A stretch of DNA of 32,000 nucleotides from contig NC_014148.1 of NCBI RefSeq assembly GCF_000092105.1, positions 1,350,001 to 1,382,000 of the forward strand, read 5' to 3'. This stretch comes from Planctopirus limnophila DSM 3776 (GTDB lineage Bacteria > Planctomycetota > Planctomycetia > Planctomycetales > Planctomycetaceae). Each line of letters opens with the position of its first letter. Position 1 is the first letter of the stretch. The position numbers were made by a program, and so were the translations under genes. Of this stretch, positions 8,872 to 31,733 are shown one piece after another. The notes below the pieces were generated by a model. That model had not been told where the DNA came from, did not search any database, and worked only from the letters and a program-made list of their open reading frames with translations.

Positions 8872-9084
8872 TTGCATCGACCGAACAGTGAGAGGTTCTT
8901 TTCTTCGGTTTCACGCACCACCGATCTCTCACCTTCGATTGCCGTTTGGCAATCTCCAAACGGGCAGAAGACCTATGCCCACCGTTTCCATTGGACGGCT
9001 TACGAGCCAGCCAGTGGAGACCGGTGGCGTGCATCCAAAGGTTTTCCATTGTTTTCCCTTCTGCGGCTTTTTCCAGCTTAACGC

Positions 9085-12855: not shown

Positions 12856-12873
12856 GAGAGATATCAAAGGGCC

Positions 12874-16824: not shown

Positions 16825-19002
16825 CTAATTGCTCACGAAGGTTCTGAGGGACCTGAGTGCGCCAGGTAAGTCGAGGCAATCTGCGGCAAACGATTCCTGA
16901 AGCAAACTCTCGGGGATAAAGTTATCCCATTTGCGTCGTACAAGTTGATGGCTCAGTTGAGCCAATTCCAATCCGAATGGCGTTTGGCGAAGAATTCGCT
17001 CCAGGCTGGATCGATTCTCCTCGCAAAATTCAATCGAAAAGGAAAGGCCCCGCGGTCGCAGTTCTGCTGAGACGCCCGCCCATTCAAACAACAGTTGGAG
17101 CGTTCGCATCACGGCTGTTCCCGTCCAGGGAAACCATTCAACTACGTCATTGGTAAGCGGAACAACATCTGATGTGGCAAGCCCAGAATCCGTTGCAACT
17201 TGACGAGCTTCATTCAGCAGTTTCACGGCAAACGAATCCAGATAAACAGGGACAGCGGAACTTTGCAGCACCTCTCGCATTTTTACTCGAATCTCATGAG
17301 CGATCTCGCCACCACTACTAAAAAACATTGGGGGTTTACGACCACGGGCCGACTGTACTTGAACCTCTTCCCTCTCGTGATCGACATTCACCACCTGCCA
17401 GCGACGGCCTGCAAGAATCAAATGTTCTCCCAGAGGTGGTACATTTTCCCTAGTGAGTCGCCCCAGGACACGACTTCCCGAAACCACTCGATATTCTAAA
17501 GGTGAAATGAAAGCCGCATAGAATTCATAATGACGAACAAATCGTTCGCCGAACAACCCGAGTATCAACAGGCCATCTGGTGTTTGTTCAATCAAATCAT
17601 GACTTGCGAGTCCCCTTAGAAGTGTCACGAATTGCTGGGAGTTGATGAAACTGAAGACGCCATCGCAAACAAGTTGGTCGAAGAGTGACGTCGCTAAAAT
17701 ACCACCCCTTTCAGCGATAACACTGAGAATCTGTTGCGTGAGCGTACTGAGATCAAATGGTCGTGTGCGAGGAGATTCCACCCATCGATCAAGCATCAGT
17801 TCTGTCAACGCAATTCCCTGGAGCAGGTCTGGGTAGAGACGATCTGAAAGTTCGCTATGTGCTCCAGGATGCTTCTCAATGATGAACATGCGAAGCTGAT
17901 GAGTTTCTCCATCACGACGTCCACTCCGGCCCAACCGCTGCAGCATCGAACTTACAGACCAGCAGGGGCCAATTTGACCCACTCCGCGAACATTTCCAAT
18001 ATCGATCCCTAGTTCAAGTGTTGAAGAACAAATTGCAGTATAAGGGCGTTGGCCCTGCATCAGCCGCTCTGTCTCTTCGCGAATGTCTTTGGAGATTGAT
18101 CCATGATGGATTAGAAACTCTTCTCCCGTCGAATTTTTTCTCCCAAGTTCGTTCAGACGATCAGTCGTCAATTCAATGACGGATTTGCTGTTCGCGAAAA
18201 TCAAATTCTTTGAGCCGCGGTAATTGTCAAAGAGTTCCTGAAAGACATCCTCCGGTGAGACATACTCAGGATCTGATGGATCTGAGTCTTTATCCAATAT
18301 CTGCGAATACGCATGCAGACGAAACTGAATCCGTTTCTCGTCACCTTCATCACAGATAATCTCGACAGAGTCCTGGTCGCCTGGTCGGATCCACTCGGCA
18401 GCAGCTTTGAGATCACCGATCGTTGCAGATAGCGCAAGGATTCGAGGCCGTGTTATTGCGTGGTGGTCAAGCCGGTAAAGTTGACTCCGGAGTTGCGTGC
18501 CGCGTTCATTTCCCAACAACGCATGGAGTTCGTCAATAACGACAAAGGAGAGGGAATGAAAGATTCGAGATAAGGCTGTACTGCGGTTAATTAACAGCGA
18601 TTCAAGTGATTCCGGCGTAATTAATAAGACGCCTCCAGGGCAAGTGACAAGTTGTTTCTTTTTGTCGGCCGAAACATCTCCATGCCAACGGTGGACTGGG
18701 ATTTCTGCATACTCACAAAGTTCTTCAAGACGACGAAACTGATCATTGATGAGTGCTTTGAGTGGCCCAATGTAGAGAGCTCTGACAGATCCGACAGGAG
18801 CAGTACAGACATCTGAAAGGATTGGCAGAAACGCAGCCTCTGTTTTGCCAGCCGCAGTCCGTGCTGCAAGAATCAAATCTGATTTTCTCTGCATCACAGC
18901 AGTAATAGCATGTTCCTGCAATGGGCGTAGCTTATTCCAGCCCATTCTCCAGAGGCTACGCCGAATTGGTTCGGCGAGAAGTTCATCGGGATGGTGCTTC
19001 AT
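16825..19002 (-). CDS. sngC: Shango SngC, Lhr-like DEAD/DEAH helicase
   Basis: 725 aa. Walker A is AARTAAGKTEAA, motif II is VVIDELHAL and motif VI is QRLGRSGRR. It has a long C-terminal extension. A 4-nt overlap couples it to the upstream ATPase gene. Confidence 0.78.
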   Translation of the reverse strand: MKHHPDELLAEPIRRSLWRMGWNKLRPLQEHAITAVMQRKSDLILAARTAAGKTEAAFLPILSDVCTAPVGSVRALYIGPLKALINDQFRRLEELCEYAEIPVHRWHGDVSADKKKQLVTCPGGVLLITPESLESLLINRSTALSRIFHSLSFVVIDELHALLGNERGTQLRSQLYRLDHHAITRPRILALSATIGDLKAAAEWIRPGDQDSVEIICDEGDEKRIQFRLHAYSQILDKDSDPSDPEYVSPEDVFQELFDNYRGSKNLIFANSKSVIELTTDRLNELGRKNSTGEEFLIHHGSISKDIREETERLMQGQRPYTAICSSTLELGIDIGNVRGVGQIGPCWSVSSMLQRLGRSGRRDGETHQLRMFIIEKHPGAHSELSDRLYPDLLQGIALTELMLDRWVESPRTRPFDLSTLTQQILSVIAERGGILATSLFDQLVCDGVFSFINSQQFVTLLRGLASHDLIEQTPDGLLILGLFGERFVRHYEFYAAFISPLEYRVVSGSRVLGRLTRENVPPLGEHLILAGRRWQVVNVDHEREEVQVQSARGRKPPMFFSSGGEIAHEIRVKMREVLQSSAVPVYLDSFAVKLLNEARQVATDSGLATSDVVPLTNDVVEWFPWTGTAVMRTLQLLFEWAGVSAELRPRGLSFSIEFCEENRSSLERILRQTPFGLELAQLSHQLVRRKWDNFIPESLLQESFAADCLDLPGALRSLRTFVSN

Positions 19003-20339
19003 AATCGAAACGTCGTTAGGTCGTCGGAGTTTTTTGGCAGATTTTCAGAATTTTCTTCCCTTGCGGTATCAAGGTTCATCTCGTCCGTAGTGGGGACAAA
19101 AGATTCAGCCTGTTTTATCGAGAGCAATTGCTCCCAAGATGCTGTGGGATTCTGTTGAAGAACCTGCATTAGGCCCACAAAATCCTTAACAGTATCACGC
19201 GGCGTTTGGAAATAGGACGATCCCATGCGTTGCTGGCAGACTTCCAAGTATCTCACAATACCTTCATCGGGAAGTAGTCGCTTCGCAAGGTCGCCACCGT
19301 CAAACACATTTCGAATATTGTCGAGCAGCACATAACAATCTTCGGCAGTGAGGCTTTCTAAATGGACGACAGGCGCATTGAGATCCCTTAATCCTTCCGA
19401 AGCAAAGCGATTGGCAGCAAGTCGTGTGGCCAATGCTTCATAGCTGAAAATTCCTCTGCGACGGTCTTCGAGACACTCGGGTGTTCCTGCGAAAACAAAA
19501 CCAATTCCACTTGCGCGCCCCTGCAGCGAATCATTCACAATACGAAGAATCGCTTCGTAATTGTTGTTACGCGCCACTGTGTTGTTTAAACGATGTGATA
19601 GAACCACTAACTCATCAACGTTGACGAGCAGCCCTGCAAATCCTGCCATTCGGACAAATGCAGCAAGGAGTTTCAAATAATCATAGAATGAATCATCCTC
19701 AATGATGGAGCGGACTCCAAGGTCCTGCCGGGCTTCTGTTTTTGTGGCGTATTCTCCACGCAACCAGCGCAATGCAGCTTGCTGTTGTACTTCGTTATGA
19801 GTCAAAAAGCCCTCAAAATATTTGACAATCACATTGGCAAAGTCGTAGCCACTGACGAGTTCCTGCAGCGGTTGAAGTCGCTTGAGAAGTTCTCTGCGGA
19901 CGCCCTCATCGTCGCCCCCATCTTCGCGCACCTCATGATCCACATCACCAACCCAGCGTTGGACGAGATTTGGCAAGGCTCCGCCGTCGGGCTTGGATCT
20001 CGTCGACAGATTCTTGATTAGCTCTGCATAAAGAGATCTTGCTTGGCCATTTGATCCGTGCAGTCGTCGCTCTGTCGTGATGTCTGCTTGGGCCACCACA
20101 AACTTCCGTTGGAGAGCAACGGTTCGCAGTAGGTTCAGAAAGAATGTCTTTCCACTGCCAAATCGCCCAATAATGAAGCGGCAAGCCGCACCACCTTGTC
20201 CAACCTGTTCAAGATCCCGCACGAGAGCTTGTACCTCGTCGTTGCGGCCTACCTGAATATGGTGCAAACCAATACCGGGAACCACTCCGGCAGCCAAGGA
20301 TTGAATGATCGCAGTCCGTTCTCGGGCAGGGATGGTCAT
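18999..20339 (-). CDS. sngB: Shango SngB, BrxD/DUF2791-like ATPase
   Basis: 446 aa. Walker A is GRFGSGKTFFL and Walker B is LLVNVDELV. It has 4-nt overlaps with both neighbouring genes. Confidence 0.78.
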   Translation of the reverse strand: MTIPARERTAIIQSLAAGVVPGIGLHHIQVGRNDEVQALVRDLEQVGQGGAACRFIIGRFGSGKTFFLNLLRTVALQRKFVVAQADITTERRLHGSNGQARSLYAELIKNLSTRSKPDGGALPNLVQRWVGDVDHEVREDGGDDEGVRRELLKRLQPLQELVSGYDFANVIVKYFEGFLTHNEVQQQAALRWLRGEYATKTEARQDLGVRSIIEDDSFYDYLKLLAAFVRMAGFAGLLVNVDELVVLSHRLNNTVARNNNYEAILRIVNDSLQGRASGIGFVFAGTPECLEDRRRGIFSYEALATRLAANRFASEGLRDLNAPVVHLESLTAEDCYVLLDNIRNVFDGGDLAKRLLPDEGIVRYLEVCQQRMGSSYFQTPRDTVKDFVGLMQVLQQNPTASWEQLLSIKQAESFVPTTDEMNLDTAREENSENLPKNSDDLTTFRL

Positions 20340-22543
20340 GGAGTCTCTCTAACTTGTGGAAGTAGTTCACGCTGCACGACGATGAACTCGCCATCTTCAA
20401 TCAGCAACGCGTCAGGCAGTCGGTCGAAAGCCCACTCATTGATTTGCTCAATCGCCGCTCCCAGCATGAGACCGCGACTCCTAGCCTCTGTTTCCAATGA
20501 CTTTAGCGGCCATTGTTCTTCTGCGATAAGGAACCTTGCAAAAGGAACAAGCCGAGAGGAAAGTCCTTCAAAGCGTGAGTCCGCCAGAGTTTCTTGAGAA
20601 GTCGCGACTGGAACGATTAAAGCGGAAACGGATTCTGTCGAATGCGTGGGAAGTTCGACGTCAGCATTATCGACTTCAAAATCCTCCCGTAGGGCATCGC
20701 GGAGGAACTGTGTTACTTTAGCTGTTTCGGTCATAATTGCATTAATACGATTGAGATCAAGCTGGAAGGTCTCCGAAGCTTGCGCGGCGGTTGATGCGAC
20801 AGCCTGAGCTGGTATTGAAATCGACTGGAGGAGCTGCTTGAGGTCTGATGTTTCCAATCCCAGCGCTCGATAGGCCTTTCCAAGGGCTTTGACTTCTGCG
20901 GGATCAATCACCTCATCGGCAGCAGCAATACCGACAAGGAATTCACCCACTTGCTTCCGTTGGGGGACAGTCAGGTTTTTTTGTAGAGTACGAGCAGCAG
21001 AGAATTCTGTCGGGGGATACTTCGTTAGCAAATACCGCAGATATTCCAGTCGCAAGGAATCTTGAGCAGAGAGTTGAAATTGAGTTTCCAGGTGGGTGCC
21101 GAGTCGACCGAGTTCGATCGGGTCGATCTGACCATCAGCGGCTGCAATCGCGACACCTAACTCCATTACGACTGCTGCCGCATGGTACGACGCAATGTCT
21201 TCGCTCAACTCCTCACTAGCCGGAAAGACATTGACCGGCTGATCCCAATCATAAGCTTTTCCTGTGAGTCGAGGGTCTGGTTCGAGTGCCAGTCGCATGT
21301 GAGTCGCTGTCAGTGCCAATTCCATTGATTGACTTTTTGTCAGCTTCTTCCTTTCCGAGATTCCTTCGAGCTTGGCGAGCTCTCCTATCGGGACGACCGT
21401 CCAGCCATCTTCCGTGACATGACGATTCATGACCGCATGCCAGATTTTGAAGTGAGGATGTTCCCATCCACGCAGATGTTCGGGCAATGACTCATACATC
21501 TCGGCCGTCATCGCACTACCATTAGACTTTCGATGAGCCCGATCGTAGGCTTTGAGCTCTTCGTTGGTCTGTACACAGACATCGATCAATGGTTGAAGTT
21601 GTGAGTTGAGCCCTAGAACATTGGGAATTCGCTCCTCCGCCAAGGGACCGCCAGAATCTTGCAAACGCCCAAGCGTGGCACTGGCGGGATAGTATTCAAA
21701 TTGCTTGTCACGCCTTCCAGTCCGCAAACGAAAGCCATCCGGATACTTTTGACGTAGGCCACGTTCGAACGAATCGCGGTGGAGTTCCGCATGTCGCTGT
21801 GAGATGACGCTGCGAGGCGTGCGAACATCGTTCTCGACGAGGCGATGAACCAGGGTAGTGGGGAGTACTGCCTGCATTTTTGCAAAGCATGCTAGACAGG
21901 TATTCAAAGTTTGTTCGCTCCAAGACCCTGTTTCGAGCGCTTGCTCCATCACCTTTCCGGTAACCGATGTTGATTTTAAACTGAGCCAGATGGTCGCCCA
22001 CAGCAACGATGTGCCGTATTGTCGAAATGATCGCGACGAAGAATAGATTTTCAGCAGCCGAATGAGTTCCTCTGCGATCGACGTATGGTCGGCTCCGTCG
22101 ATCAATACCCGTCGTTCGAGGCCATAAAAATAGATAAAAACGTAACCCAAGGGGATTGCCGGATCAGACCTGCCACCAATCAACCAGTCGAGATAACGCG
22201 ATCTCTGGGCGGGTGAGGAACCTCGATAACTCGGCCAATAAGGAAGGTCTTCAGCCTCTGTCCCTGATGGTGCTACTGGCAAGCCGGTTTCGATGAGAGA
22301 TGCATCCGGTGCGGCGTCCGCTATTCCCGGAAACACATACACGAGTGGGCTGACAACTTGACCACGATCAAACAGTAGTTTCGTTTTTGAATCGTAGAAC
22401 TTTGCTTGTGGTTGAGGTTTGGGATTCCAGGTTCGTTTAGCGAAATCCCAGACGTTTTCTCTGGAACTCCCACTTGACCTTTTTTGCTCCTGCTTAGCCT
22501 GCGCCCCCGTCACCCGCCTCCAAAGTTCGACGAACGGTTCCAT
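20336..22543 (-). CDS. sngA: Shango SngA, TerB-N / TerB domain protein
   Basis: 735 aa. The TerB-N-like block is YWPSYRGSSPAQRSRYLDWLIGGR. Two TerB-like acidic motifs are AAADGQIDPIELGRL and AAADEVIDPAEVKAL. It is the first gene of a three-gene operon in the order TerB, ATPase, helicase. Confidence 0.78.
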   Translation of the reverse strand: MEPFVELWRRVTGAQAKQEQKRSSGSSRENVWDFAKRTWNPKPQPQAKFYDSKTKLLFDRGQVVSPLVYVFPGIADAAPDASLIETGLPVAPSGTEAEDLPYWPSYRGSSPAQRSRYLDWLIGGRSDPAIPLGYVFIYFYGLERRVLIDGADHTSIAEELIRLLKIYSSSRSFRQYGTSLLWATIWLSLKSTSVTGKVMEQALETGSWSEQTLNTCLACFAKMQAVLPTTLVHRLVENDVRTPRSVISQRHAELHRDSFERGLRQKYPDGFRLRTGRRDKQFEYYPASATLGRLQDSGGPLAEERIPNVLGLNSQLQPLIDVCVQTNEELKAYDRAHRKSNGSAMTAEMYESLPEHLRGWEHPHFKIWHAVMNRHVTEDGWTVVPIGELAKLEGISERKKLTKSQSMELALTATHMRLALEPDPRLTGKAYDWDQPVNVFPASEELSEDIASYHAAAVVMELGVAIAAADGQIDPIELGRLGTHLETQFQLSAQDSLRLEYLRYLLTKYPPTEFSAARTLQKNLTVPQRKQVGEFLVGIAAADEVIDPAEVKALGKAYRALGLETSDLKQLLQSISIPAQAVASTAAQASETFQLDLNRINAIMTETAKVTQFLRDALREDFEVDNADVELPTHSTESVSALIVPVATSQETLADSRFEGLSSRLVPFARFLIAEEQWPLKSLETEARSRGLMLGAAIEQINEWAFDRLPDALLIEDGEFIVVQRELLPQVRETP

Positions 22544-23112: not shown

Positions 23113-26100
23113 TTAGTCACTCTCCAAACCATGATCTGAACTTTGCTGAATAATGTCTTCCAATTCTTCTCGGCCACTGAGTGTCCTGATGGCTGGCGGC
23201 GTCTTGAGAAGTTGTCCACATCGGGCAAGAGTTTGATTCAGGAGTGTAGCAGATGAATTCGCGTTGTGCGTGGAGTAGATGCCGAGTACAGAGCGTGCTC
23301 TCGTCATGGCGACGTAGAGACTGGATGCCAGCACGTTATCGTCTGAGTCAATAAAATTATCGGCACATGGAATGAGCACGACTTCAGCTTCGTAGCCTTT
23401 GAATGAATTTGCGGTCGTCACCAACAATGTCTTACGTTTCCGCTCGAACTTCTGGCTTTTTTGCAGGGAGAGTTCGACATTGAACTGCTCCAGTCGCGGG
23501 GCGACATCGGACAGCAGCCGTTCCCAAATCCAGTTCCCATTGATAATCAGACAGATATCATTTGGTGGCACTTTCTCGTCAATCAAAAGCTTCACCAAAT
23601 CGTTTTGGAGAACTTCCAGTTCGTGATCTCTGGTGGCGTGCTGGCGAACATAGGGTCGGGGTCCGTCAATTTGGTTGTATTCCACTCGCAACCACTCTTC
23701 ACGATCTCGCAATTCTTTGGTCAAAAGTCCGAGTGACTGGAGTTCTTTGTGATCCTGCAAATCGGCAGTTGGCGCTAATCGCTGCAAAACATTGACAGCG
23801 AACTCGGTAATCGGACGGGTTGAGCGAAAGCTCTCTTTCATCACGGTCGATCGGCCACGGAGATCGAGGCCAAACTCGGACCATTTTGGTGTTTTCCGAC
23901 CATATAAGTTCTGGGCATTGTCGAAGAAAATGTGTGCCGACCGACTGTTGTGGTCTTCAGGTCGAGTTTGTTCCACGAGGGAGAGGAGAAGTCTCAGAGT
24001 GTGGGGGCCCATGTCCTGGGCTTCATCCAGAAACAAGGCCCGGCATGAATGTCGGATTGTTGTTTCTGACTGCTGATTCAAAAAGTCCTCCGAGGCCTTA
24101 TCGTAGTTGAATTTGTATTGCTCCATCGAAAGCCCGACGCTCGGCAGGAGCTGCGCAAGCAGATCGCGCACATGAATCAGTTCCACTTGGTCCCAAGGGA
24201 ACTCCAGTAGATTCCGTTGATTCTTCCAGGCGGCCTCAATGGAACTGCTGAGCAAACTATGCAGTGTTCGATTGGCGTAAACGGCCCAGATTTTTGCTTG
24301 GGGATCACCCTGCAAACGACTGGCTGTCTGAGCCAGCCAATTGGAAAGGACCACGGTCTTTCCGCTTCCCGCCACACCGCGTACCAGACGTGGTTTCCCA
24401 TCCAACTCCAGTTGACTCAGTCGCTGCTGTTCCTGGGACAAAATGGGCTTCATCTTGCGGCGCAAGGCAAATTGCCCACCCAACGTGTCGTCCCCCTCGC
24501 AAGGTTCATCGGCATCAGGAGGTGTGAGCTGACTTGCGGACTGCCACTGAACTCCCCCTCTTTTCTTAACCAGAACTTGAGGGGTGAGCAATTGCCCTAG
24601 AGGACTGAGATAGGGTTCTTCCATTTCACTACGACTGGCGATCACAATCACGGCTTCTCGTGCACGACTGATCGCCACATTCACCAAGCGTTTCCACTCG
24701 TCATGGGGCCATTGATGACTCCCTGCGTTCACCGTGTCAAAAATCACAACATCAGCTTCTGATCCCTGCTGACGATGCACCGTTGATGCTTCCCAGCTTT
24801 CGAGCCTGTTTTCAGCAAACCATTGACCAAACATTTGAGCCTGGGCGACATAGGGAGAAATGAAAAGCCCATGGCAAGTTCTCATTTCCGATGCTTGCAG
24901 GATCTTCTCCAAGACGGCCAGAGATCCCTTTCGAATCCAACTCCGATTTCCTGGCCCACGCTCGGCACGAATGGAGGCCAGGTTTTTGTTTTCTTCATCA
25001 ATCACGTACCAAATGGCCCGTGGCTGCTGGCTAAGACATGGAGGCAATGGACAAGGTCGCGAGTTGACTTCTGGAGCCGTGGTCAGAATGGAACCGTACT
25101 GATAGGCCGAGACGACCTGACAGATCTCAGGACGCATTCGCCGTTGTTCTGTTAGCACATGGACAGCAGGCGAGACGTTGGTCATGTGATGAAGATGGCT
25201 GACACCACTACTGGCTAGCCAAGCCTGTTGAACCGTCGTCAACACGCGCCGCACGCGACTGATGGGCGCCAGCTGTTTGGAATCACCGACCAACACAACT
25301 CGTCGAGCTGCCAAAAGAGAAAGTGCCGCTGTCGCTGCCCTGGAGATGAGACCTGCTTCATCAATCACAATCGTCGTGAAGGGGGCCTCGTTACGCTCCA
25401 GCAACGAACGTACTGTCTCCTGGTGGAGAAACTGGAGGGCCTTAAACGACGTTGTGATCACAACCCGGAAGTCGCGATGGGTAAAGATGACTCGCCCATG
25501 GTCGCCCACCGAGGATCGGAGTTCTTGAATTTTCTTTCGAAGGAAGGCCTTCTCTTCCCAGGAGTCAACCAGAGGCAGTTGACGACTCAACAATTCGATC
25601 TCACGCAACTTCTCGGTTTCTGTGCCAACGAGCATTGAGTCAAGACCATGGCTCTGAAATCGATCGACGGCCGCCCCGCGTCCAATCCGAACAAGTCCTA
25701 GTTCTTCAACATGGGAGTCTGCGAGTTCGACCGTAGCAGTTCCGATCGATAAAGCCACTGCATCTGTTGCCCGATTGGTCGTGGAGACAACCAGAATTCG
25801 TTCCGTAGGGTCCGCCAGTGCGGCAGCCACTTGACGGCCGATGGTGTAGGTTTTGCCTGTTCCGGGTGGACCCCAGAGCATACTCCAACTGTATTGCCAC
25901 CATGGGGAGAGTTCTTTGAGTCCTCCAGCGGCGGTATGCCGGACTTGGGGGGATTGACTCCCCGTGGCAGCGCTCAATCGTTGACTGAGAACTTCAGAAA
26001 GTGACCGGAACCGCTCTTCATGGTAAATGTCATCAAGGGTACCGAGAAAATCAAAGGGCCTGACCAGAAATGTCCCCACAGTGGGAGGATGATCCGAACT

Positions 26101-26523
26101 GGTCAAGCTAATGAACAAGCATCCCTGTTGGGGATCAACTTCCAGAATTTCGCCTGACCACTGGCTGGCCTCTTCGACAGGCGATTCTTCAAAGTCGGCC
26201 AGGTCAATGGCATCATTCTCCTCCAGAGCGTGTGGCCGAAAGGCCAAGGCACCTTCCCACGTCCAATCAAACTCAAGACCGCTGCCAACATAGATCGCAA
26301 AGATTACTCCACGATCACTCTCGGAAAACACATGCACTTTCTGGCAAGTCAGACGGACCCATCGTGAGCTGATTCGCAGTTCTTCGCGTACCGCCTTGCG
26401 AGCATCTCGAAGATAGGTCGGATCACCGCTAGACAGGGTCAGTTCCTGGGGAAATCGGGCGGGTTCCCCGCACGCATCTCCAATGAACGAGTCAGCGGCA
26501 TCTTGATGAGTGTCCTCACGCAC
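23113..26523 (-). CDS. Tandem SF1 helicase fusion: N-terminal Upf1/Dna2-like (SF1B) core plus C-terminal UvrD-like (SF1A) core
   Basis: 1136 aa. The first core carries GPPGTGKT (nt 25849-25872), VIDEAGLI, VLVGDSKQLAPI, LTEQRRMRPEI, TVHRQQGSEADVVIFD and NVAISRAREAV. The second core carries GVAGSGKT (nt 24355-24378), LFLDEAQDMG, FFDNAQNLYG, SFRSTRPI, TTANSFKGYEAEVVLI and LYVAMTRARSVL. The N-terminal 200 aa or so have no motif I recognise. Confidence 0.85.
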   Translation of the reverse strand: MREDTHQDAADSFIGDACGEPARFPQELTLSSGDPTYLRDARKAVREELRISSRWVRLTCQKVHVFSESDRGVIFAIYVGSGLEFDWTWEGALAFRPHALEENDAIDLADFEESPVEEASQWSGEILEVDPQQGCLFISLTSSDHPPTVGTFLVRPFDFLGTLDDIYHEERFRSLSEVLSQRLSAATGSQSPQVRHTAAGGLKELSPWWQYSWSMLWGPPGTGKTYTIGRQVAAALADPTERILVVSTTNRATDAVALSIGTATVELADSHVEELGLVRIGRGAAVDRFQSHGLDSMLVGTETEKLREIELLSRQLPLVDSWEEKAFLRKKIQELRSSVGDHGRVIFTHRDFRVVITTSFKALQFLHQETVRSLLERNEAPFTTIVIDEAGLISRAATAALSLLAARRVVLVGDSKQLAPISRVRRVLTTVQQAWLASSGVSHLHHMTNVSPAVHVLTEQRRMRPEICQVVSAYQYGSILTTAPEVNSRPCPLPPCLSQQPRAIWYVIDEENKNLASIRAERGPGNRSWIRKGSLAVLEKILQASEMRTCHGLFISPYVAQAQMFGQWFAENRLESWEASTVHRQQGSEADVVIFDTVNAGSHQWPHDEWKRLVNVAISRAREAVIVIASRSEMEEPYLSPLGQLLTPQVLVKKRGGVQWQSASQLTPPDADEPCEGDDTLGGQFALRRKMKPILSQEQQRLSQLELDGKPRLVRGVAGSGKTVVLSNWLAQTASRLQGDPQAKIWAVYANRTLHSLLSSSIEAAWKNQRNLLEFPWDQVELIHVRDLLAQLLPSVGLSMEQYKFNYDKASEDFLNQQSETTIRHSCRALFLDEAQDMGPHTLRLLLSLVEQTRPEDHNSRSAHIFFDNAQNLYGRKTPKWSEFGLDLRGRSTVMKESFRSTRPITEFAVNVLQRLAPTADLQDHKELQSLGLLTKELRDREEWLRVEYNQIDGPRPYVRQHATRDHELEVLQNDLVKLLIDEKVPPNDICLIINGNWIWERLLSDVAPRLEQFNVELSLQKSQKFERKRKTLLVTTANSFKGYEAEVVLIPCADNFIDSDDNVLASSLYVAMTRARSVLGIYSTHNANSSATLLNQTLARCGQLLKTPPAIRTLSGREELEDIIQQSSDHGLESD

Positions 26524-26746: not shown

Positions 26747-27034
26747 GATTGGAGAACTCTTCCGAGACGGTTGCGCCATAGTGCAGGGGACTTTTGAAAA
26801 ACTGAACAGAATTTCGTTGGCGAGAACGTTGACACTTGGATAGATTTTTGAGGTCGACCAATTACTGAAATGGTCTTTATTTCTCCTTCGGAGTGATTTT
26901 TGTTTGAAGTCGAGGACGCACGCATGCGGCCTCGTTGACATCGCTGAGACGCGCGCGAGCGTCAGGAACTGCTTCTCTCAAAACCGCCAACCTGGGCTGT
27001 AAAGCCCTTGAGTACAAGAGCAGTGCTTGGACCG

Positions 27035-27090
27035 CGCCCCCGCAAGGGGGCGTCGGCCATGTACTGTTTTGTACGCCCCTTGGCGGGGGT
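27035..27090. repeat. Pair of GC-rich REP-like palindromes in inverted orientation
   Basis: cgccccc-gcaa-gggggcg (27035-27052) is a 7-bp stem with a GNRA-type loop. acgcccc-ttggc-gggggt (27073-27090) reads as roughly its reverse complement. A small hairpin, gtac-tgtttt-gtac, lies between them. Confidence 0.6.
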
Positions 27091-27092
27091 TG

Positions 27093-27129
27093 AGAGAGCG
27101 GTCGTGGTTCGGCGCTCTCTTTCTTTTCC
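27093..27129 (+). terminator. Intrinsic-terminator-like hairpin plus T-tract, 18 nt upstream of the next start codon
   Basis: agagagcg (27093-27100) pairs with cgctctct (27113-27120) around a 12-nt loop and is followed by ttcttttcc (27121-27129). The ATG of the downstream gene is at 27147. Confidence 0.45.
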
Positions 27130-27146
27130 GCCAGCGGGGTATTCGC

Positions 27147-27785
27147 ATGTTCGATCGTTTTTCTCTCAAATCAGACCCGTCGACGCCGTTCGATTTTATG
27201 ACAGGCTCAGCGCTGTTTCGCAGAGTCCTCCTTTATGCGGGCATACTGTTCGCCAGCCTCTATCTCTTCGTTGGCGTCTGGTGGTGGGTCCATTCTTGGT
27301 CGGGACGAAGCGATCTCGCCGGATCAAGAAACACCAGAAGTCTGAGCAAGCGACAACTCAGCGACACGAAGAAGTTCGATGAAGCTCAAGATCGTTCGAA
27401 ACTGATGGCTCATCGACCGGCTGCAGAACCGAAACCTCAAAACAACAAACCGGTCAATCAAGACGTTATGACGTTTATCGAATTGATGCGATCCAAATCG
27501 CGAAGCGAACCGCGAACAGGAACTTCTGTTACTTCAGATCAGACCACCAAAGCTCAAGACAGCCAACGATCTGCTTTAAGCAATCACGTCGACCCGAGCA
27601 AAAATGAGCCCAGAGCTCTCCTCACGAATGATTCCCAGAAACAGTTGAGTGAATTGCTGAAGCGTCCAGTTCATGGTGGGGTCTATCCCAAGTTGTCCCC
27701 TGGGTTTAGCCGGTCGTCATCAACTCGATCCCTACGTCCCGTGCGTAGTGTGCGGTCTCGGTTTGGAACATTTTATATGTTCTAA
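27147..27785 (+). CDS. Hypothetical membrane-anchored protein with low-complexity tail
   Basis: This is the frame of track ORF 27027..27785. I prefer ATG 27147 because the upstream 40 codons overlie the hairpin cluster. The N-terminal TM segment is LLYAGILFASLYLFVGVWWWV. The remainder is polar and low in complexity. Confidence 0.5.
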   Translation: MFDRFSLKSDPSTPFDFMTGSALFRRVLLYAGILFASLYLFVGVWWWVHSWSGRSDLAGSRNTRSLSKRQLSDTKKFDEAQDRSKLMAHRPAAEPKPQNNKPVNQDVMTFIELMRSKSRSEPRTGTSVTSDQTTKAQDSQRSALSNHVDPSKNEPRALLTNDSQKQLSELLKRPVHGGVYPKLSPGFSRSSSTRSLRPVRSVRSRFGTFYMF

Positions 27786-28005
27786 GTGTCAGGCACAGTG
27801 AGTTCAGGGATTGCGGTCATCTTGGCGACCACAATCTGACTTTCTGATCCCTTTTTCAAGTCGTGGTTCCCCTGTGGTGGGCCATGATTCGCGAGCCAGA
27901 TGGAAGATTATCTCGGCTCACGCTTTTCGGGTCTTCAGCTGCGGCATCCCCGCGCCATCGACACCAGCTCTTGCGAATTTGCTCTTCCCTGAGTGGAGAA
28001 TAAAC

Positions 28006-29370
28006 ATGCCCTACGATTTCTTTTCTCAAGCAAATACTACTGCCAAAGATTCGACAGCCAATCCGTCTCAACTGGCTGCAGGAACATCACTGCTTCTGGG
28101 AATTACGGTTGCCGCGGTTGTCTTTCTTGGTGGTTGGTGGTGGAGCAGCGGCTCAGTAACTCCCCCTGCGCAGTCATCGACCACTCCCTTACCACCAGTC
28201 CCTCCCGTAGTCCCAATTTCCAAGGTCGAGTTACCTCAGGAATATAGAGTTTTGGCCGATGTTCTGACTCATCAAATCGTTCCATCACCTGCGGAATGGG
28301 AAGTCGTACCCAAGCCCGCCGTACTAGCGGAATTGCATCGGCAACTGGATGCACTCCGCAATCTTTCCAGTTCGGATCAAGAGATTCAGAGTATGGCCCA
28401 GCGAACACATACGGCACTTGCCACCTTCATCAAGCACTTTGAAGAATTTCAAGCTTTACCAGATCCAACATCGACTAGTGATCTCATGCTTGATTCATTT
28501 GTTTCGGGGTTTGTCTCTGGATTTACTGGCGACCTTGAACTCGTCAAAGGTTCCTTTGAGCGTACGGCAGCATCCGATTCCCGAGCAGCGGCCAAACAGC
28601 GTGCGGCGATTGCGTTATGTCATGCCGAACAGCAATGTGTTGCGATCCAGCTCACACTATCTCGGATCGCTGAGCGTTTTGCGGCCCCGGTCACAGCTGC
28701 GGGGGATCGATTTAAAATTGATATTGATGATCCGTGGGGAGCACATGCCCCCAAAAAGTGGATTTGCTTCCATAATGGGGGAGATGATCTCCGGGATTGC
28801 ACTCTGCAAGTTCAATTGACGGGCCAAAACGGACCACCACGCAGCAATGTCCACTTCATCAAGCATTGGCCAGCAAACACCTGGATGTACTCCCTCTATC
28901 AAGTCGGTTTTCAACTCCCCGATGGAAGCTATGTCGATTCGCAGACAGTTAGTTCCATCCAGTCTGCAGAAGTCAAACTGTGGTCACCTGAGTACTCGAC
29001 ACAGTTTCGTTACGACTATCAGGGGGCGGGCCGAGATGAAGATGTCAAAAGATTTGGATCAGCCCTCAAGATTCAAGGGAAGTATCTCCCGTTTAAGCAA
29101 GGGGTCCTTTGGAATACCCAACCAGGTGCTGAACTGACTCTCCACGGTGTGGAATGGCTTCCTCCAGGTAAGGTGACTCTCACGTTCCGTGGAAATCGAA
29201 GAAAAGAAAAGGCTTGGATCTGGGATCATTCCGGATGGCCGAACGGAGAGGCAAAGACGTTCACCACACCTGAGGGCGCTCTGGAGTTTGTGCCTCAAGA
29301 GATTGATGTGGAACTCTCATTTCCAGACACGGCGACCGTGTTCACAGAGCGGCTGAAAGTCTCGAAGTAA
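28006..29370 (+). CDS. Hypothetical single-pass membrane protein
   Basis: This is the frame of track ORF 27811..29370. ATG 28006 is preceded by GGAG at 27995-27998. The TM segment is LLLGITVAAVVFLGGWWW, followed by a Pro-rich linker and a roughly 380-aa domain of unknown family. Confidence 0.6.
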   Translation: MPYDFFSQANTTAKDSTANPSQLAAGTSLLLGITVAAVVFLGGWWWSSGSVTPPAQSSTTPLPPVPPVVPISKVELPQEYRVLADVLTHQIVPSPAEWEVVPKPAVLAELHRQLDALRNLSSSDQEIQSMAQRTHTALATFIKHFEEFQALPDPTSTSDLMLDSFVSGFVSGFTGDLELVKGSFERTAASDSRAAAKQRAAIALCHAEQQCVAIQLTLSRIAERFAAPVTAAGDRFKIDIDDPWGAHAPKKWICFHNGGDDLRDCTLQVQLTGQNGPPRSNVHFIKHWPANTWMYSLYQVGFQLPDGSYVDSQTVSSIQSAEVKLWSPEYSTQFRYDYQGAGRDEDVKRFGSALKIQGKYLPFKQGVLWNTQPGAELTLHGVEWLPPGKVTLTFRGNRRKEKAWIWDHSGWPNGEAKTFTTPEGALEFVPQEIDVELSFPDTATVFTERLKVSK

Positions 29371-29537
29371 GCCAGTACGACTCGCGGTTATTTGTCGGGT
29401 CATTGGTTCCAAAGGTCGTCTCGTACTTTGGACAAAAAGAGTGGTGGAATCGATGTCGTTTCCTGCACCAAATCGCCAGACAAACTGGGCACTTCAATCA
29501 CTACAGAGTCAAAACCAAATTCTTGCAAAGGGAACTC

Positions 29538-30545
29538 ATGTTGCAGCATCGATTCTGGTTCACGGTCGTTTGCATTTTGGTGTTCAGTGGCCTCCCGGAA
29601 AGACTGATTGCCGCTCCGGCCGATCCTCCACTGACTCCCGAGCAGCGTCGAATCCTCGAACGATTCCAACAGATTTCCTGGCAAAAGGGGCCCGGCCGAT
29701 TCGCAGTTGGGCCACAAGCCACCATTCAGATCCCTGACGGATTTCAGATCACCAATTCAGCCGGTGCTCAGATCTACATGGAGTTAAGTGGTAACCCGCC
29801 ATCCGCAAACATTCAGAGTGTGGTAACATTTACAGAGGAGCCATTTGGATTTTACCTGATTTTCTCTTATGAGGACTCGGGGAAAGTCGATGATCGTGAT
29901 GCGAGTAATCTCAATGCGGATGAGCTCCTCAAGCAGCTTCGCGAGAATACGAATGCTGGAAACGCTCATCGCAAACAACTGGGACTAGAGCCACTCTACA
30001 TTGATCGCTGGATCATTCCTCCGCGTTACAACTCCACTACGAAGCAATTGGAATGGGCACTTCGCGGGCATTCGGAAAGTGGGAATCCCGTCGCCAATTG
30101 GGATACCAGGATCTTGGGACGCTACGGCATGATGTCCGTCAAGCTGGTGATGACAAATCCAGACGAAATTGAGTCTGTAATTCCCGGCGTTAATCAGCTG
30201 CTGCAAGGCTTTTCATTCAATGCTGGAAGTGATTACGCATCGTGGCAACCCGGAGACAAAGTGGCCGCACTGGGTGTGACCGCATTGGTGGCTGGATCCA
30301 CAACCGCGGTCGCTGCCAAACTGGGATTCTTTCAGAAAATGGGTGTCTTTATTTTTAAATACATCTATCTGATTCTGGCAGCTTTGGGGGCCGTCGGAGC
30401 GCGCTTCCTTGGGAAATCCGCATCCAACTCGTCTCCTTCAGATTCAGTCGCGATGAATCGCGACTCGGCTCTTCCTCGTCCCCCGACACTTCCAGGACCA
30501 CGTCCCCGAACGCCCCAGTCTCCCGACAATCAGTCAAGTGATTGA
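29538..30545 (+). CDS. DUF2167-like membrane-anchored protein
   Basis: The start is chosen at MLQHRFWFTVVCILVFSG, which looks like a signal peptide. Blocks typical of DUF2167 are YEDSGKVDDRDASNLNADELLKQLRENTNAGNAHRKQLGLEPLYIDRWIIPPRY...LEWAL and TRILGRYGMMSVKLV. It has C-terminal TM helices. Confidence 0.65.
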   Translation: MLQHRFWFTVVCILVFSGLPERLIAAPADPPLTPEQRRILERFQQISWQKGPGRFAVGPQATIQIPDGFQITNSAGAQIYMELSGNPPSANIQSVVTFTEEPFGFYLIFSYEDSGKVDDRDASNLNADELLKQLRENTNAGNAHRKQLGLEPLYIDRWIIPPRYNSTTKQLEWALRGHSESGNPVANWDTRILGRYGMMSVKLVMTNPDEIESVIPGVNQLLQGFSFNAGSDYASWQPGDKVAALGVTALVAGSTTAVAAKLGFFQKMGVFIFKYIYLILAALGAVGARFLGKSASNSSPSDSVAMNRDSALPRPPTLPGPRPRTPQSPDNQSSD

Positions 30546-30767
30546 CGTGCAATTGAGGGACGTAATGTGTCTCCGCCTCAAAGCCCAGCCATGCGACGAT
30601 CGTAGAAGATCTTCGGCGGGTTGCAGACGGGCCGAGCCTTAGAGATCGGCGGGCACGTCAGGAAGTAGGGAGAGGAGATTGGCAGATAGTTCGGCGGCAG
30701 AGATATCAGCAGTTAATCCAATCATTTTTAGCGGTGATTGCAGGCACAGGCGGGATTGACCCACACG

Positions 30768-31733
30768 ATGTACGGGATAACTGACCAATGGCTCTGGGTT
30801 GCCTTGGTGGGACTCTTTCTTCTGGAGCAATTCCGACTGCTGCGGAGAGAAGAGCAGGCCATTTTTGAGATGCGTTCAGGGCTCTGGAGAACTTGTCCCG
30901 TGTTATTGGAAAACTCCAGGTGTCGCCTCGTGTGGTTACCTATTTCTTCCACCTGTCGAGTCTTCATAGGAGATCAGGGAACTTTCGACCTTACATACTG
31001 TTGGACCGCTGGAACTTCGTCGTTATTACCGCGACCAGACGAGGTGAAAGACTTTCAGGCATTCCTCGCGGCCTGGCAACGAGCCAGTCAGTTGGTGCAG
31101 CTGACATCGACTGGGTTGGCTCTCTGTCTGGGCATGCTGATCCTCCTCTGGGCTGGTTTCTTGACGGTGAGTATTCCCTATGCCATACGCTGGACCCTGG
31201 GAGCCACTTTCACCTGCTGGTCACTAACAGCGTGCTTCTATTGGCAGTCCGCTCGCTCACTTCGGCGGCAGGGCTGGGGAGACGTCTCCGCCTCTGTGGC
31301 CGACGTCTTAATCAGTCCGCTGTCTGCACTCAAAGCCTATTCACTCTTGGGAAAGATGGGATGCCAAAGATATCACTTCAGTACTGTCGCCTGGGCTCTG
31401 GCTCCACATGCGGTGCTTCATCAATGGGCTCGCAATGCCACTGTCGCACCCAATCTTCAGGATTTCTCGACGGGAGTTTCTGCCAATCTCGAAACCCCGA
31501 CGCCGGGACAACTCCAAGAGTTGCTTCAGCTGCGCGGCATAGAACTATCTGTGGCGATTGCTACTCCGCATCCCGATTCTGATGCAATCTGCTTTTGTCC
31601 GCGCTGCCATGCTCAATACACGCGCTGGGTGGAATGTTGTTGGAATTGCACTTCATGGAAAGAAACTTTGGCTGTGGAAACCAGTCCTGAAGAGCCTCCT
31701 CCCAAAGATTACCAAAGCTCCATCGAGTCCTAA
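30768..31733 (+). CDS. Hypothetical multi-pass membrane protein with C-terminal zinc-ribbon-like CxxC...CxxC
   Basis: This is the frame of track ORF 30738..31733, which opens on TTG; ATG 30768 is preferred. It has several hydrophobic segments. The C-terminal motif is CFCPRCHAQYTRWVECCWNC. Confidence 0.55.
   Translation: MYGITDQWLWVALVGLFLLEQFRLLRREEQAIFEMRSGLWRTCPVLLENSRCRLVWLPISSTCRVFIGDQGTFDLTYCWTAGTSSLLPRPDEVKDFQAFLAAWQRASQLVQLTSTGLALCLGMLILLWAGFLTVSIPYAIRWTLGATFTCWSLTACFYWQSARSLRRQGWGDVSASVADVLISPLSALKAYSLLGKMGCQRYHFSTVAWALAPHAVLHQWARNATVAPNLQDFSTGVSANLETPTPGQLQELLQLRGIELSVAIATPHPDSDAICFCPRCHAQYTRWVECCWNCTSWKETLAVETSPEEPPPKDYQSSIES

What the first reader, a model, noticed from the sequence alone, without database searches (positions are those of the whole stretch)
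23113..26523. One polypeptide carrying two complete SF1 helicase motors of predicted opposite polarity (Upf1/Dna2-like plus UvrD-like)
Both halves keep every canonical motif, including Walker A and B. The first half has GPPGTGKT, DEAG, GDSKQLAP, QRRM, QGSEADVV and NVAISRA. The second half has GSGKT, DEAQD, DNAQNLY, FRSTRPI, KGYEAEVV and VAMTRAR.

SF1B enzymes (Upf1, Dna2, RecD) usually move 5' to 3'. SF1A enzymes (UvrD, Rep, RecB) move 3' to 5'. Fusing both in one chain would mimic the RecB+RecD bipolar-motor logic without the other RecBCD parts.

The gene stands alone and sits immediately next to Shango inside a defence island. I see no nuclease or other effector motif. The first 200 residues or so are unassigned. 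I do not recognise this architecture as any named defence system. It is my leading candidate for a novel single-gene system, or a novel sensor.
Basis: partly seen in the sequence, partly recalled or inferred. Interest (0 to 1): 0.82.

Follow-up and report, generated by a model that had tools for sequence, protein, structure and literature searches.

The report
Two-motor SF1 helicase, unknown function
One Planctopirus gene encodes two different, fully intact helicase engines joined in a single protein; the family is conserved and uncharacterised, and it often, though not always, sits among anti-phage genes, so it is a plausible but unproven new defence gene.

Summary
ORF 23113-26523 (-) encodes a 1136-aa protein (Planctopirus limnophila ADG66917.1, annotated only "AAA ATPase") with two complete SF1 helicase cores.

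- **First motor (aa 1-650):** a Upf1/IGHMBP2-type SF1B motor. The "unassigned" first ~200 residues are its ordinary stalk and 1B beta-barrel, not a new domain.
- **Second motor (aa ~690-1106):** a compact motor with UvrD-type motifs. Its nearest relatives are NERD-nuclease-fused helicases. Its best fold match is the SLFN11/14 helicase, so 3'-5' polarity is inferred, not shown.
- **Origin:** the halves share no detectable similarity, so this is a fusion, not a duplication.
- **Conservation:** all catalytic residues of both motors are nearly invariant in 62 relatives at 30-51% identity.
- **Distribution:** about 60 or more clusters at 50% identity, in Planctomycetota and also Myxococcota.
- **Known systems:** no PADLOC or NCBIfam model covers the architecture, and I found no paper on it.
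- **Partners:** none is conserved. An XRE-type HTH gene sits directly upstream in some loci.
- **Context:** 6 of 14 long loci lie in clear defence or mobile islands, 2 are partial and 6 are not. Shorter metagenome loci show few defence neighbours.

A defence role is plausible but unproven, and a repair role is not excluded. I rate it a new variant of a known kind, interest about 0.55.

The parts
23113..26523 (-). Whole gene: 1136-aa tandem SF1 helicase (P. limnophila ADG66917.1 / Plim_1080), GTG start, stop codon at 23113-23115
   Evidence: ORF list; identity to the database protein; coordinates checked
26464..26523 (-). aa 1-20: poorly conserved, low-confidence N-terminal tail
   Evidence: pLDDT below 50 for residues 1-18; variable columns in the alignment
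25924..26463 (-). aa 21-200: Upf1-type stalk helices plus 1B beta-barrel.
   Evidence: AF2 secondary structure: H35-52, strands 56-155, H158-185. Foldseek alignments to IGHMBP2/Upf1 of ~685-695 columns for a 660-aa query. Conserved EFDWTWEGA, WSGEI.EVD and FVRPF.FL blocks. No Pfam hit when scanned alone.
24574..25923 (-). aa 201-650: motor 1, Upf1/IGHMBP2-like SF1B RecA1+RecA2 core. Walker A 25849-25872, DEAG 25351-25362, GDSKQLAP 25264-25287, QRRM 25135-25146, QGSEADVV 24745-24768, NVAISRAR 24658-24681.
   Evidence: Pfam AAA_11/AAA_12; PDB sequence hits IGHMBP2, Upf1, Dna2; Foldseek E about 1e-23 to IGHMBP2/Upf1/SETX/Dna2/ZNFX1; PADLOC MkoA helicase region 2.8e-45; motif invariance
24454..24573 (-). 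aa 651-690: linker of variable length and low conservation between the two motors
   Evidence: Gapped columns ~661-715 of alignment A1, with linker length differing by up to about 25 residues between homologues
23206..24453 (-). aa 691-1106: motor 2, a compact SF1 core with UvrD-type motifs. LSQEQQ 24424-24441, Walker A 24355-24378, DEAQD 24013-24027, DNAQNLY 23902-23922, FRSTRPI 23809-23829, KGYEAEVV 23377-23400, VAMTRAR 23293-23313.
   Evidence: AF2 model pLDDT 90.2. Foldseek: SLFN11/14 helicase 1.6e-15, PcrA/UvrD/Rep about 1e-12. Profile versus PDB: UvrD1, AddA, SLFN11. PADLOC C3a187 'NERD+UvrD' 4.3e-23. Nearest relatives are NERD-fused helicases. Motif invariance.
23116..23205 (-). aa 1107-1136: short, low-confidence C-terminal tail. 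In 6 of the 16 homologues aligned, a conserved extra domain of ~80 aa sits here; the window protein lacks it.
   Evidence: pLDDT falls after residue ~430 of the C-half model; alignment columns 1170-1268; no Pfam match for the extension

Best explanation
**What is shown**
- The gene encodes a stand-alone protein made of two different, catalytically intact SF1 motors joined by a flexible linker.
- The N-terminal motor is Upf1/IGHMBP2-type SF1B, with stalk, 1B barrel and a helical insertion where Upf1 carries domain 1C.
- The C-terminal motor is compact and has UvrD-type motifs. It belongs to the lineage that is elsewhere fused to NERD nucleases or kinases.

**What is inferred**
- It is an accessory gene, exchanged horizontally, that rides in defence islands and ICE-like elements of Planctomycetota and a few other phyla.
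- It acts on foreign nucleic acid without a nuclease of its own.

**Proposed mechanism (inferred)**
1. The SF1B motor (5'-3') and the SF1A-type motor (3'-5') load on the two strands of a DNA end, fork or R-loop.
2. They travel in the same net direction, following RecB+RecD logic.
3. This unwinds or strips phage or plasmid replication intermediates and burns ATP.
4. Replication is blocked directly, or single strands are exposed to host nucleases.
5. Both ATPase sites are required.
For: **Architecture and integrity**
- It is a fusion, not a duplication: BLASTP between the halves gives E = 1.2.

**Both modules have defence relatives**
- Motor 1 matches the Mokosh MkoA/MkoC helicase region.
- Motor 2 matches C3a187 NERD+UvrD, a PADLOC entry I read as a CRISPR-accessory cluster, as well as the RT-associated NERD-helicase model and GajB.

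**Modular swapping typical of conflict systems**
- NERD+motor 2, kinase+NERD+motor 2 and STAND-NTPase+tandem variants all exist.

**Genomic context**
- The window gene sits with Hachiman, SIR2-APAZ/pAgo, IetAS and Shango.
- L061: type I RM, CTD6/MC2 and RES.
- L062: TIR and BREX.
- L065 and L001: MmeI/SNF2, TIR, ArdC and integrase.
- L080: SNF2, methyltransferase, SMC and SLFN_AlbA.
- An XRE-type HTH gene lies directly upstream in L064 and L080.

**Other support**
- No neighbour is conserved.
- Identity does not follow taxonomy: Planctomicrobium is 69% identical to Novipirellula but 53% to Planctopirus, which I place in its own family from general knowledge.
- Truncated copies occur in Novipirellula aureliae and Botrimarina mediterranea.
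Against: - There is no phenotype and no biochemistry.
- 6 of 14 long loci show no defence or mobile genes within 10 kb.
- 82 neighbour ORFs from 24 metagenome loci gave only a handful of PADLOC hits and mostly housekeeping Pfam families.
- No background rate was measured.
- No copy was found on plasmids or phages.
- The window protein has no effector domain, which is unusual for helicase-based defence proteins.
- Identity of 53-89% across the whole length among planctomycete members also fits a useful cellular enzyme.
- The polarity of motor 2 is untested.
- The relative geometry of the two motors was not modelled.
Confidence: 0.42

Rival explanations
1. It is a cellular genome-maintenance enzyme. 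A lineage-specific two-motor helicase would process DNA ends, or resolve R-loops and transcription-replication conflicts, in Planctomycetota and Myxococcota, which have large genomes. On this view its place in a defence island here is incidental.
For: - About half of the loci are in ordinary metabolic or structural neighbourhoods.
- Purifying selection is strong over 1100 aa, and all motifs of both motors are kept.
- An ortholog is kept in a second Planctopirus species.
- Upf1-like relatives such as Dna2, SETX and IGHMBP2 are maintenance enzymes.
- There is no toxin or effector domain.
- From general knowledge, planctomycete genomes have scrambled gene order, so missing synteny is weak evidence.
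Against: - The gene recurs inside defence or ICE-like islands in at least 6 of 14 loci.
- Identity does not track taxonomy.
- Truncated copies occur in cultured isolates.
- Variants are fused to STAND NTPases, and relatives of motor 2 are fused to NERD nucleases or kinases.
- An XRE regulator sits directly upstream in some loci.
Confidence: 0.3
2. It is the sensor or motor half of a larger system whose effector is encoded elsewhere. Candidates are the adjacent Shango genes in this window, a separately encoded NERD nuclease, or a host nuclease recruited in trans.
For: - It is co-oriented with and directly upstream of sngA-sngB-sngC.
- A NERD-domain gene lies divergently upstream in L067.
- The closest relatives of motor 2 carry a fused NERD nuclease.
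- 6 of the 16 homologues aligned add an extra C-terminal domain of unknown function.
Against: - No other homologue locus contains Shango, and no neighbour family recurs beyond an HTH gene (4 loci) and SNF2 (3 loci).
- A 570-bp gap with a promoter-like site separates the gene from sngA.
- Shango is complete as a three-gene system by PADLOC.
Confidence: 0.13
3. It serves a mobile element's own biology, for example ICE replication or transfer, or counter-defence, rather than protecting the host.
For: - L001 and L065 share ArdC-like, RuvB-like AAA and integrase genes around the helicase.
- The window island carries an ArdC-N-like ORF at 9085-9843.
Against: - Most loci have no integrase, relaxase or conjugation genes.
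- There are no copies on plasmids or phages.
- The gene's position relative to the ArdC genes varies between loci.
Confidence: 0.08

Closest known systems
Mokosh MkoA / MkoC helicase domain (Upf1-like COG1112 helicase of an anti-phage system)
   Same: - Motor 1 matches the helicase region of MkoA (PADLOC PDLC03920, 2.8e-45, profile positions 635-1077 of 1112) and of MkoC.
- Both are Upf1-like SF1B motors found in defence islands.
   Different: - Mokosh pairs the helicase with a PLD nuclease, either as MkoB or fused, and type I adds a Ser/Thr kinase.
- Here there is no PLD and no kinase, and the match covers only the helicase core.
- The fused partner here is a second helicase.
NERD-fused UvrD-like helicases (PADLOC C3a187 'NERD+UvrD'; RT-associated NERD-helicase; NCBI 'nuclease-related domain-containing DEAD/DEAH box helicase')
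   Same: - These are the nearest non-tandem relatives of motor 2: 670-710-aa proteins scoring 230-260 bits against the motor 2 profile.
- They carry Pfam NERD plus UvrD-helicase/UvrD_C and hit C3a187 at about 1e-31.
- They occur on E. coli and Vibrio plasmids and co-locate with defence reverse transcriptases.
   Different: - In the window protein, a complete Upf1-like helicase occupies the N-terminal position that the NERD nuclease holds in those proteins.
- No nuclease is present.
RecBCD / AddAB / AdnAB end-processing machines
   Same: - They combine two SF1 motor-type modules in one machine.
- In RecBCD, an SF1A motor (RecB) and an SF1B motor (RecD) work on opposite strands (general knowledge).
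- RecD and UvrD-family chains appear among the fold matches.
   Different: - Those are multi-subunit complexes with RecB-family nuclease domains and Chi recognition.
- From general knowledge, AddB's motor is degenerate.
- Here there is one chain, no nuclease, and motor 1 is Upf1-like rather than RecD-like.
- NCBIfam recB and recD models match only fragments, far below their cut-offs.
Human HELZ2 (interferon-induced protein with two helicase domains)
   Same: - It is a single polypeptide with two active SF1 helicase domains in an antiviral context.
   Different: - Both HELZ2 helicases are Upf1-like SF1B, and they flank an RNB exoribonuclease and zinc fingers.
- The window protein joins two different SF1 lineages and has no nuclease.
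Group III Schlafen helicase domain (SLFN11/SLFN14; Pfam PF09848, formerly DUF2075) and Nhi
   Same: - These are the best fold matches of motor 2: SLFN11 at E 1.6e-15 and rmsd 5.2 over 399 columns.
- Pfam gives weak SLFN-g3_helicase hits at the Walker A region.
- Both are compact SF1 cores without a large 2B domain.
- Nhi is a DUF2075 anti-phage helicase.
   Different: - Sequence similarity is marginal (SLFN11 at 0.013).
- Schlafens and Nhi carry N-terminal nuclease domains.
- Motifs III-VI of motor 2 are closer to UvrD.
Gabija GajB (UvrD-like helicase component)
   Same: - Several GajB models hit both motors weakly, mainly at motifs V-VI (E 1e-7 to 1e-10).
- GajB is an example of a UvrD-like protein acting in defence without its own nuclease domain.
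   Different: - GajB works with the GajA OLD-type nuclease, and no GajA is nearby.
- The matches are partial and weak.

Membership tests
SF1B Upf1-like helicases (motor 1) | Walker A GxxGTGKT, DExx, motif III GDxxQLxP, motif V QGxE, motif VI NVAxSRA | tested here: met
   All are present at aa 218-622 and nearly invariant in 62 relatives. Pfam AAA_11 and AAA_12 score above their cut-offs.
SF1B Upf1-like helicases (motor 1) | Upf1-type accessory architecture: stalk helices plus 1B beta-barrel N-terminal to RecA1, and a helical 1C insertion | tested here: met
   The AF2 model shows H35-52, strands 56-155, H158-185 and helices 302-348. Foldseek alignments to IGHMBP2, Upf1, Sen1/SETX, Dna2 and ZNFX1 run to ~685-695 columns for a 660-aa query (E 1e-23 to 1e-21, TM 0.5-0.58). 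Reading helices 302-348 as the 1C equivalent is my inference from their position.
SF1B Upf1-like helicases (motor 1) | 5'-3' translocation on RNA or DNA | not testable with these tools
   Inferred from family membership only.
SF1A UvrD/Rep/PcrA-like helicases (motor 2) | Motif pattern: Q-motif, GxGSGKT, DExQD, motif III DxxQxIY, motif IV (Y/F)RS, motif V KGxE, motif VI YVAxTRA | tested here: met
   LSQEQQ, GVAGSGKT, DEAQD, DNAQNLY, FRSTRPI, KGYEAE and YVAMTRAR are all present and conserved. They align colinearly to M. tuberculosis UvrD1 motifs I-VI. Close relatives pass Pfam UvrD-helicase and UvrD_C cut-offs.
SF1A UvrD/Rep/PcrA-like helicases (motor 2) | Four-subdomain structure with large 1B and 2B domains | tested here: not met
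   The model is compact. About 110 aa separate motifs I and II, and about 137 aa separate motifs IV and V, with only a helix and a beta-hairpin at the 2B position. The top fold hit is the SLFN11/14 helicase, and Upf1 scores close to PcrA/UvrD/Rep. For the window protein itself, the Pfam UvrD hits fall below their cut-offs.
SF1A UvrD/Rep/PcrA-like helicases (motor 2) | 3'-5' translocation polarity | not testable with these tools
   There are no biochemical data. The DUF2075-type helicase Nhi unwinds from both 5' and 3' overhangs, so polarity cannot be read from the fold.
Mokosh (type I or II) | Upf1-like helicase together with a PLD-family nuclease (separate MkoB, or fused as in MkoC); type I also has a Ser/Thr kinase domain | tested here: not met
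   Only the helicase core of MkoA and MkoC matches. The protein has no PLD or kinase domain. The flanking ORFs are SngA and unannotated proteins.
NERD-helicase (C3a187-type) | N-terminal NERD (PD-(D/E)xK-like) nuclease domain fused to the UvrD-like helicase | tested here: not met
   C3a187 matches only aa 695-1082, at profile positions 197-541 of 559. There is no NERD hit in the protein. NERD is present in the relatives P0340 and P0341.
RecBCD / AddAB-type helicase-nuclease | RecB-family nuclease domain(s) and partner subunits (RecC or AddB) | tested here: not met
   NCBIfam recB and recD models match fragments at 15-45 bits against cut-offs of 310-696. There is no nuclease domain and no conserved neighbour.
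Shango (SngABC) | Membership of the conserved three-gene sngA-sngB-sngC unit | tested here: not met
   SngA, SngB and SngC are complete next door. The helicase matches no Sng model. None of 13 homologue loci carries Shango.
Defence-island gene (guilt by association) | Most family members lie within ~10 kb or 10 genes of known defence systems, in variable genomic contexts | tested here: inconclusive
   Of 14 long loci, 6 are clear, 2 partial and 6 negative. Among 82 neighbour ORFs of 24 metagenome loci, only a few hit PADLOC. No background rate was measured.

The most novel reading that the evidence does not exclude
The protein is a self-contained, single-chain bipolar DNA or RNA motor. One SF1B and one SF1A-type engine would work on opposite strands, giving phage or plasmid immunity with no nuclease or toxin, by unwinding or stripping replication intermediates or by substrate-triggered ATP depletion. 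That would be a new class of effector-less single-gene defence system. It would also be the first natural fusion that puts RecB+RecD dual-motor logic into one polypeptide.
Probability: 0.2. Interest if true: 0.8.

Novelty: new variant of a known kind. Interest (0 to 1): 0.55.

Why it matters
**If both motors are active with opposite polarity**
- This would be a compact natural model of dual-motor unwinding. So far that has been studied in the multi-subunit RecBCD machine.
- It could be taken apart with two point mutations, K224 and K722.

**If it protects against phages or plasmids**
- It would add a nuclease-free, helicase-only mechanism to bacterial immunity.
- It would give a first function to the large group of NERD-associated UvrD-like helicases.

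**Taxonomic value**
- It also flags Planctomycetota, whose defence repertoire has had little experimental study, as a source of untested candidates.

**If it is a repair enzyme**
- The interest is narrower: a lineage-specific end-processing or R-loop helicase.

Tried and rejected
**Searches that led nowhere**
2. A second word-indexed protein search with motor 2 alone returned only fragments of the same family and no outgroup. The exhaustive representative search was needed.
3. hhalign of A2 against A3 was uninformative, because the A3 rows were full-length and so contained motor 2. I replaced it with a direct BLASTP of the two halves.
4. phmmer of motor 2 against PDB sequences found nothing significant.
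The phage and plasmid tblastn searches agree with it.
6. Promoter and terminator scans, tRNA search, composition profile and Rfam over the window gave nothing informative.
7. Literature searches for tandem helicase defence, Plim_1080 and bipolar single-chain helicases found no paper on this family.
8. The ~80-aa C-terminal extension of some homologues has no Pfam match.

**Ideas rejected**
- An internal duplication.
- An unknown N-terminal sensor domain.
- Membership of Mokosh, Shango, Gabija or RecBCD.

**Not done**
- A full-length structure model, because both prediction jobs went on the two halves.
- A genome-wide presence/absence census.
- A background rate for defence neighbourhoods.

Full report
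**1. The observation**

The window holds a single long ORF on the minus strand, 23113..26523, with a GTG start and 1136 aa. It is identical to Planctopirus limnophila DSM 3776 ADG66917.1 / Plim_1080, which is annotated only as "AAA ATPase". Homologues begin at the same alignment column, so the start is credible.

Pfam assigns AAA_11/AAA_12, the Upf1-like SF1 families, to aa 213-632. It gives weaker P-loop and helicase matches on aa ~700-850, and weak UvrD_C and SLFN-type helicase matches when the second half is scanned alone.

**2. Anatomy of the first half**

An AlphaFold2 model of aa 1-660 (39-sequence alignment, pLDDT 78) shows this order:
- a disordered tail (aa 1-18);
- a long helix (35-52);
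- a run of seven strands (56-155);
- two long helices (158-185);
- a RecA-like domain carrying Walker A, a helical insertion (about 302-348), and Walker B;
- a second RecA-like domain.

Foldseek against the PDB returns only Upf1-like SF1B helicases at the top: IGHMBP2, Upf1, SETX/Sen1, Dna2, ZNFX1, nsp13 and Aquarius (E down to 1e-23). The alignments run to about 685-695 columns, gaps included, for a 660-residue query against ~614-residue targets. PDB sequence search agrees.

They are not a new sensor domain.

Single-helicase relatives of 650-740 aa, with barrel and SF1B core only, exist in Burkholderiaceae and Acidobacteriaceae. They too match only the helicase part of Mokosh MkoA.

**3. Anatomy of the second half**

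The model of aa 676-1136 is confident (pLDDT 90.2). It is a compact two-RecA SF1 core. About 110 residues separate motifs I and II, and about 137 residues separate motifs IV and V. Only a helix and a beta-hairpin sit where UvrD carries its large 2B domain.

Fold and sequence evidence:
- The best Foldseek matches are the SLFN11/SLFN14 helicase domains (1.6e-15), followed closely by PcrA/UvrD/Rep and by Upf1.
- A profile of 41 family sequences matches M. tuberculosis UvrD1 (6e-4, motifs I-VI colinear), AddA (9e-3) and SLFN11 (0.013). SF1B chains score worse.
- The motif types (D..Q.IY, FRS, KG.E, YVA.TRAR, plus an upstream Q-motif) are those of UvrD/Rep/PcrA.

The exhaustive search of 1.84 billion representatives shows what this motor is related to. 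After the tandem family itself, the next-best hits (230-260 bits) are 670-710-aa proteins in which the same motor follows an N-terminal NERD nuclease domain. These are PADLOC's C3a187 "NERD+UvrD". One variant has a kinase, a NERD-like region and the motor (P0358).

Motor 2 therefore belongs to the UvrD-like lineage by sequence. It fails the structural definition of a classical four-subdomain SF1A helicase, and its polarity is unknown. The DUF2075-type defence helicase Nhi unwinds from either overhang.

**4. The two halves together**

BLASTP between the halves finds nothing (E = 1.2). This is a fusion of two anciently separate SF1 lineages, not a duplication.

They are joined by a linker of variable length and poor conservation.

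In 62 tandem representatives that are only 30-51% identical to the window protein, conservation of both motors is almost complete:
- Walker A Lys: 61/62 and 62/62.
- Walker B Asp-Glu: 62 and 61 for motor 1, 62 and 62 for motor 2.
- Motif III Gln and motif VI Arg: 61-62/62 in each motor.

Both engines are under selection as working ATPases.

**5. The family**

The first search gave 729 proteins at E <= 1e-10. The best 120 are 1081-1244 aa, cover 89-100% of the query, and are 52-66% identical apart from the query's own cluster. Almost all that carry a name come from Planctomycetota.

The representative search lists 61 new clusters at 50% identity with the 1000-1400-aa architecture. Some come from Myxococcota MAGs.

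Variants:
- an N-terminal STAND NTPase (P0283, 1854 aa);
- a C-terminal zinc finger (P0278);
- in 6 of the 16 homologues aligned, a conserved C-terminal extension of ~80 aa with no Pfam match, which the window protein lacks.

Pairwise identities do not follow taxonomy. Truncated copies exist in Novipirellula aureliae and Botrimarina mediterranea. P. hydrillae has a full-length copy that clusters with the P. limnophila protein at 90% identity or more.

No tandem copy was found in the plasmid, phage or viral-contig collections.

**6. Context**

In the window the gene is the last member of a dense island:
- Hachiman at 445-4354;
- SIR2-APAZ/pAgo at 4706-7860;
- an ArdC-N-like ORF at 9085-9843;
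- IetAS at 11851-15351;
- Shango at 16825-22543.

A 570-bp gap with a promoter-like site separates the gene from sngA.

Among the 13 homologue loci with about 10 kb of flank on each side:
- Five are in clear defence or mobile islands: L061 (type I RM, CTD6/MC2, RES), L062 (TIR, BREX), L065 and L001 (MmeI/SNF2, TIR, ArdC, integrase), and L080 (SNF2, methyltransferase, SMC, SLFN_AlbA).
- Two are partial: L064 (Abi_alpha) and L067 (a divergent NERD gene).
- Six show nothing of the kind.

With the window, that makes 6 clear, 2 partial and 6 negative of 14.

All-against-all comparison of the neighbours finds no conserved partner. The only recurring families are an XRE-type HTH gene (4 loci, directly upstream in L064 and L080) and an SNF2 helicase (3 loci).

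24 further metagenome loci were found with a family-specific DNA pattern. Their 82 neighbour ORFs gave only scattered PADLOC hits and mostly housekeeping Pfam families.

The association with defence is real but moderate, and I could not measure a background rate.

**7. Known systems**

No PADLOC v2 model and no NCBIfam (2026) model covers the architecture. Each matches one motor only, or fragments far below the cut-off. The protein fails the defining features of four candidates:
- Mokosh: no PLD nuclease and no kinase.
- NERD-helicases: no NERD domain.
- RecBCD/AddAB: no nuclease and no partner subunit.
- Shango: not part of the three-gene unit.

Literature searches found nothing on this family.

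The nearest precedent for two SF1 motors in one chain is human HELZ2. Its two helicases are both Upf1-like, and they flank an RNB nuclease.

**8. Interpretation**

*Shown:* a conserved, stand-alone, two-motor SF1 protein with both ATPase sites intact. Motor 1 is Upf1-like SF1B. Motor 2 comes from the UvrD-like, NERD-associated lineage.

*Inferred:* motor 2 moves 3'-5'. The two motors act on opposite strands of an end, fork or R-loop. The biological role is conflict with phages or plasmids.

I favour the conflict role at about 0.4, for these reasons:
- Both modules have relatives in defence systems.
- The domain swapping around motor 2 is typical of conflict systems.
- Placement in defence or mobile islands recurs.
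- An XRE regulator sits directly upstream in some loci.
- The phylogeny is incongruent with taxonomy.
- Decayed copies exist.

A cellular repair or R-loop role (about 0.3) fits the many ordinary neighbourhoods, the strong conservation and the lack of an effector. The remaining rivals are less likely: a sensor for a trans-acting effector, or a function within a mobile element.

**9. Verdict**

The architecture appears undescribed, but it is built from known helicase modules, so I class it as a new variant of a known kind. Interest is about 0.55. It is a good, cheaply testable candidate, through two Walker A mutants, a phage panel and polarity assays. It is not yet a defence system.

Noticed in passing
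window 9085-9843 (+): An ORF with an ArdC N-terminal (anti-restriction) domain (Pfam ArdcN, 2.3e-9) lies between the SIR2-APAZ/pAgo and IetAS systems. ArdC-like genes also flank the tandem helicase in L001 and L065. The island may be, or derive from, an integrative mobile element.
   Followed up: partly
L064 9663-9992 (+); L080 9635-9988 (+); L001 5927-6271 (+); L065 5623-5976 (+): A homologous XRE-type HTH gene of ~110-117 aa recurs near the tandem helicase. It sits 8-12 bp upstream in L064 and L080, and divergent from an SNF2-methyltransferase module in L001, L065 and L080. It could regulate either system. The window has no equivalent.
   Followed up: partly
homologues P0021, P0030, P0054, P0065, P0090, P0047 (alignment A1, columns ~1170-1268): 6 of the 16 homologues aligned carry a conserved C-terminal extension of ~80 aa (HRKWL..LW...QEPI.D..G...AEPLFWF......ACF). 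It has no Pfam match even at E <= 10. The window protein lacks it, and its function is unknown.
   Followed up: partly
proteins P0283 (1854 aa), P0358 (967 aa), P0278 (1355 aa): Architectural variants exist around the same motor: a STAND/NACHT-like NTPase fused in front of the tandem helicase, a Ser/Thr kinase plus NERD-like region plus motor 2, and a tandem helicase with a C-terminal zf-Di19-like zinc finger.
   Followed up: partly
proteins P0224 (Novipirellula aureliae, 756 aa) and P0234 (Botrimarina mediterranea, 616 aa): These are truncated copies of the family in cultured isolates: motor 1 plus only part of motor 2. One is annotated as 'RecBCD enzyme subunit RecD'. They are probably decayed genes and a source of misannotation.
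   Followed up: no
window 15760-16668 (+), 10565-11317 (-), 8714-9109 (+): These ORFs of 131-302 aa lie inside the defence island, between named systems, and have no Pfam, NCBIfam or PADLOC match. They may be unrecognised defence or mobile-element genes, or not genes at all.
   Followed up: no
L061 6316-9828 (+): In Anatilimnocola floriformis, a three-gene block with Pfam CTD6, MC2 and AAA_23 domains sits between a type I RM system and the tandem helicase, and a RES-domain gene follows the helicase.
   Followed up: no
L067 8503-9576 (-): In Roseiconus nitratireducens, a stand-alone NERD-domain protein (357 aa) is encoded divergently, directly upstream of the tandem helicase. This is notable because the closest relatives of motor 2 carry a fused NERD domain. 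It was seen in one locus only.
   Followed up: no
window 27027-31733 (+): On the upstream side of the gene, four co-oriented ORFs follow one another. Only one has a family match (DUF2167, 29403-30545). This looks like the edge of the island and the start of lineage-specific chromosomal genes.
   Followed up: no
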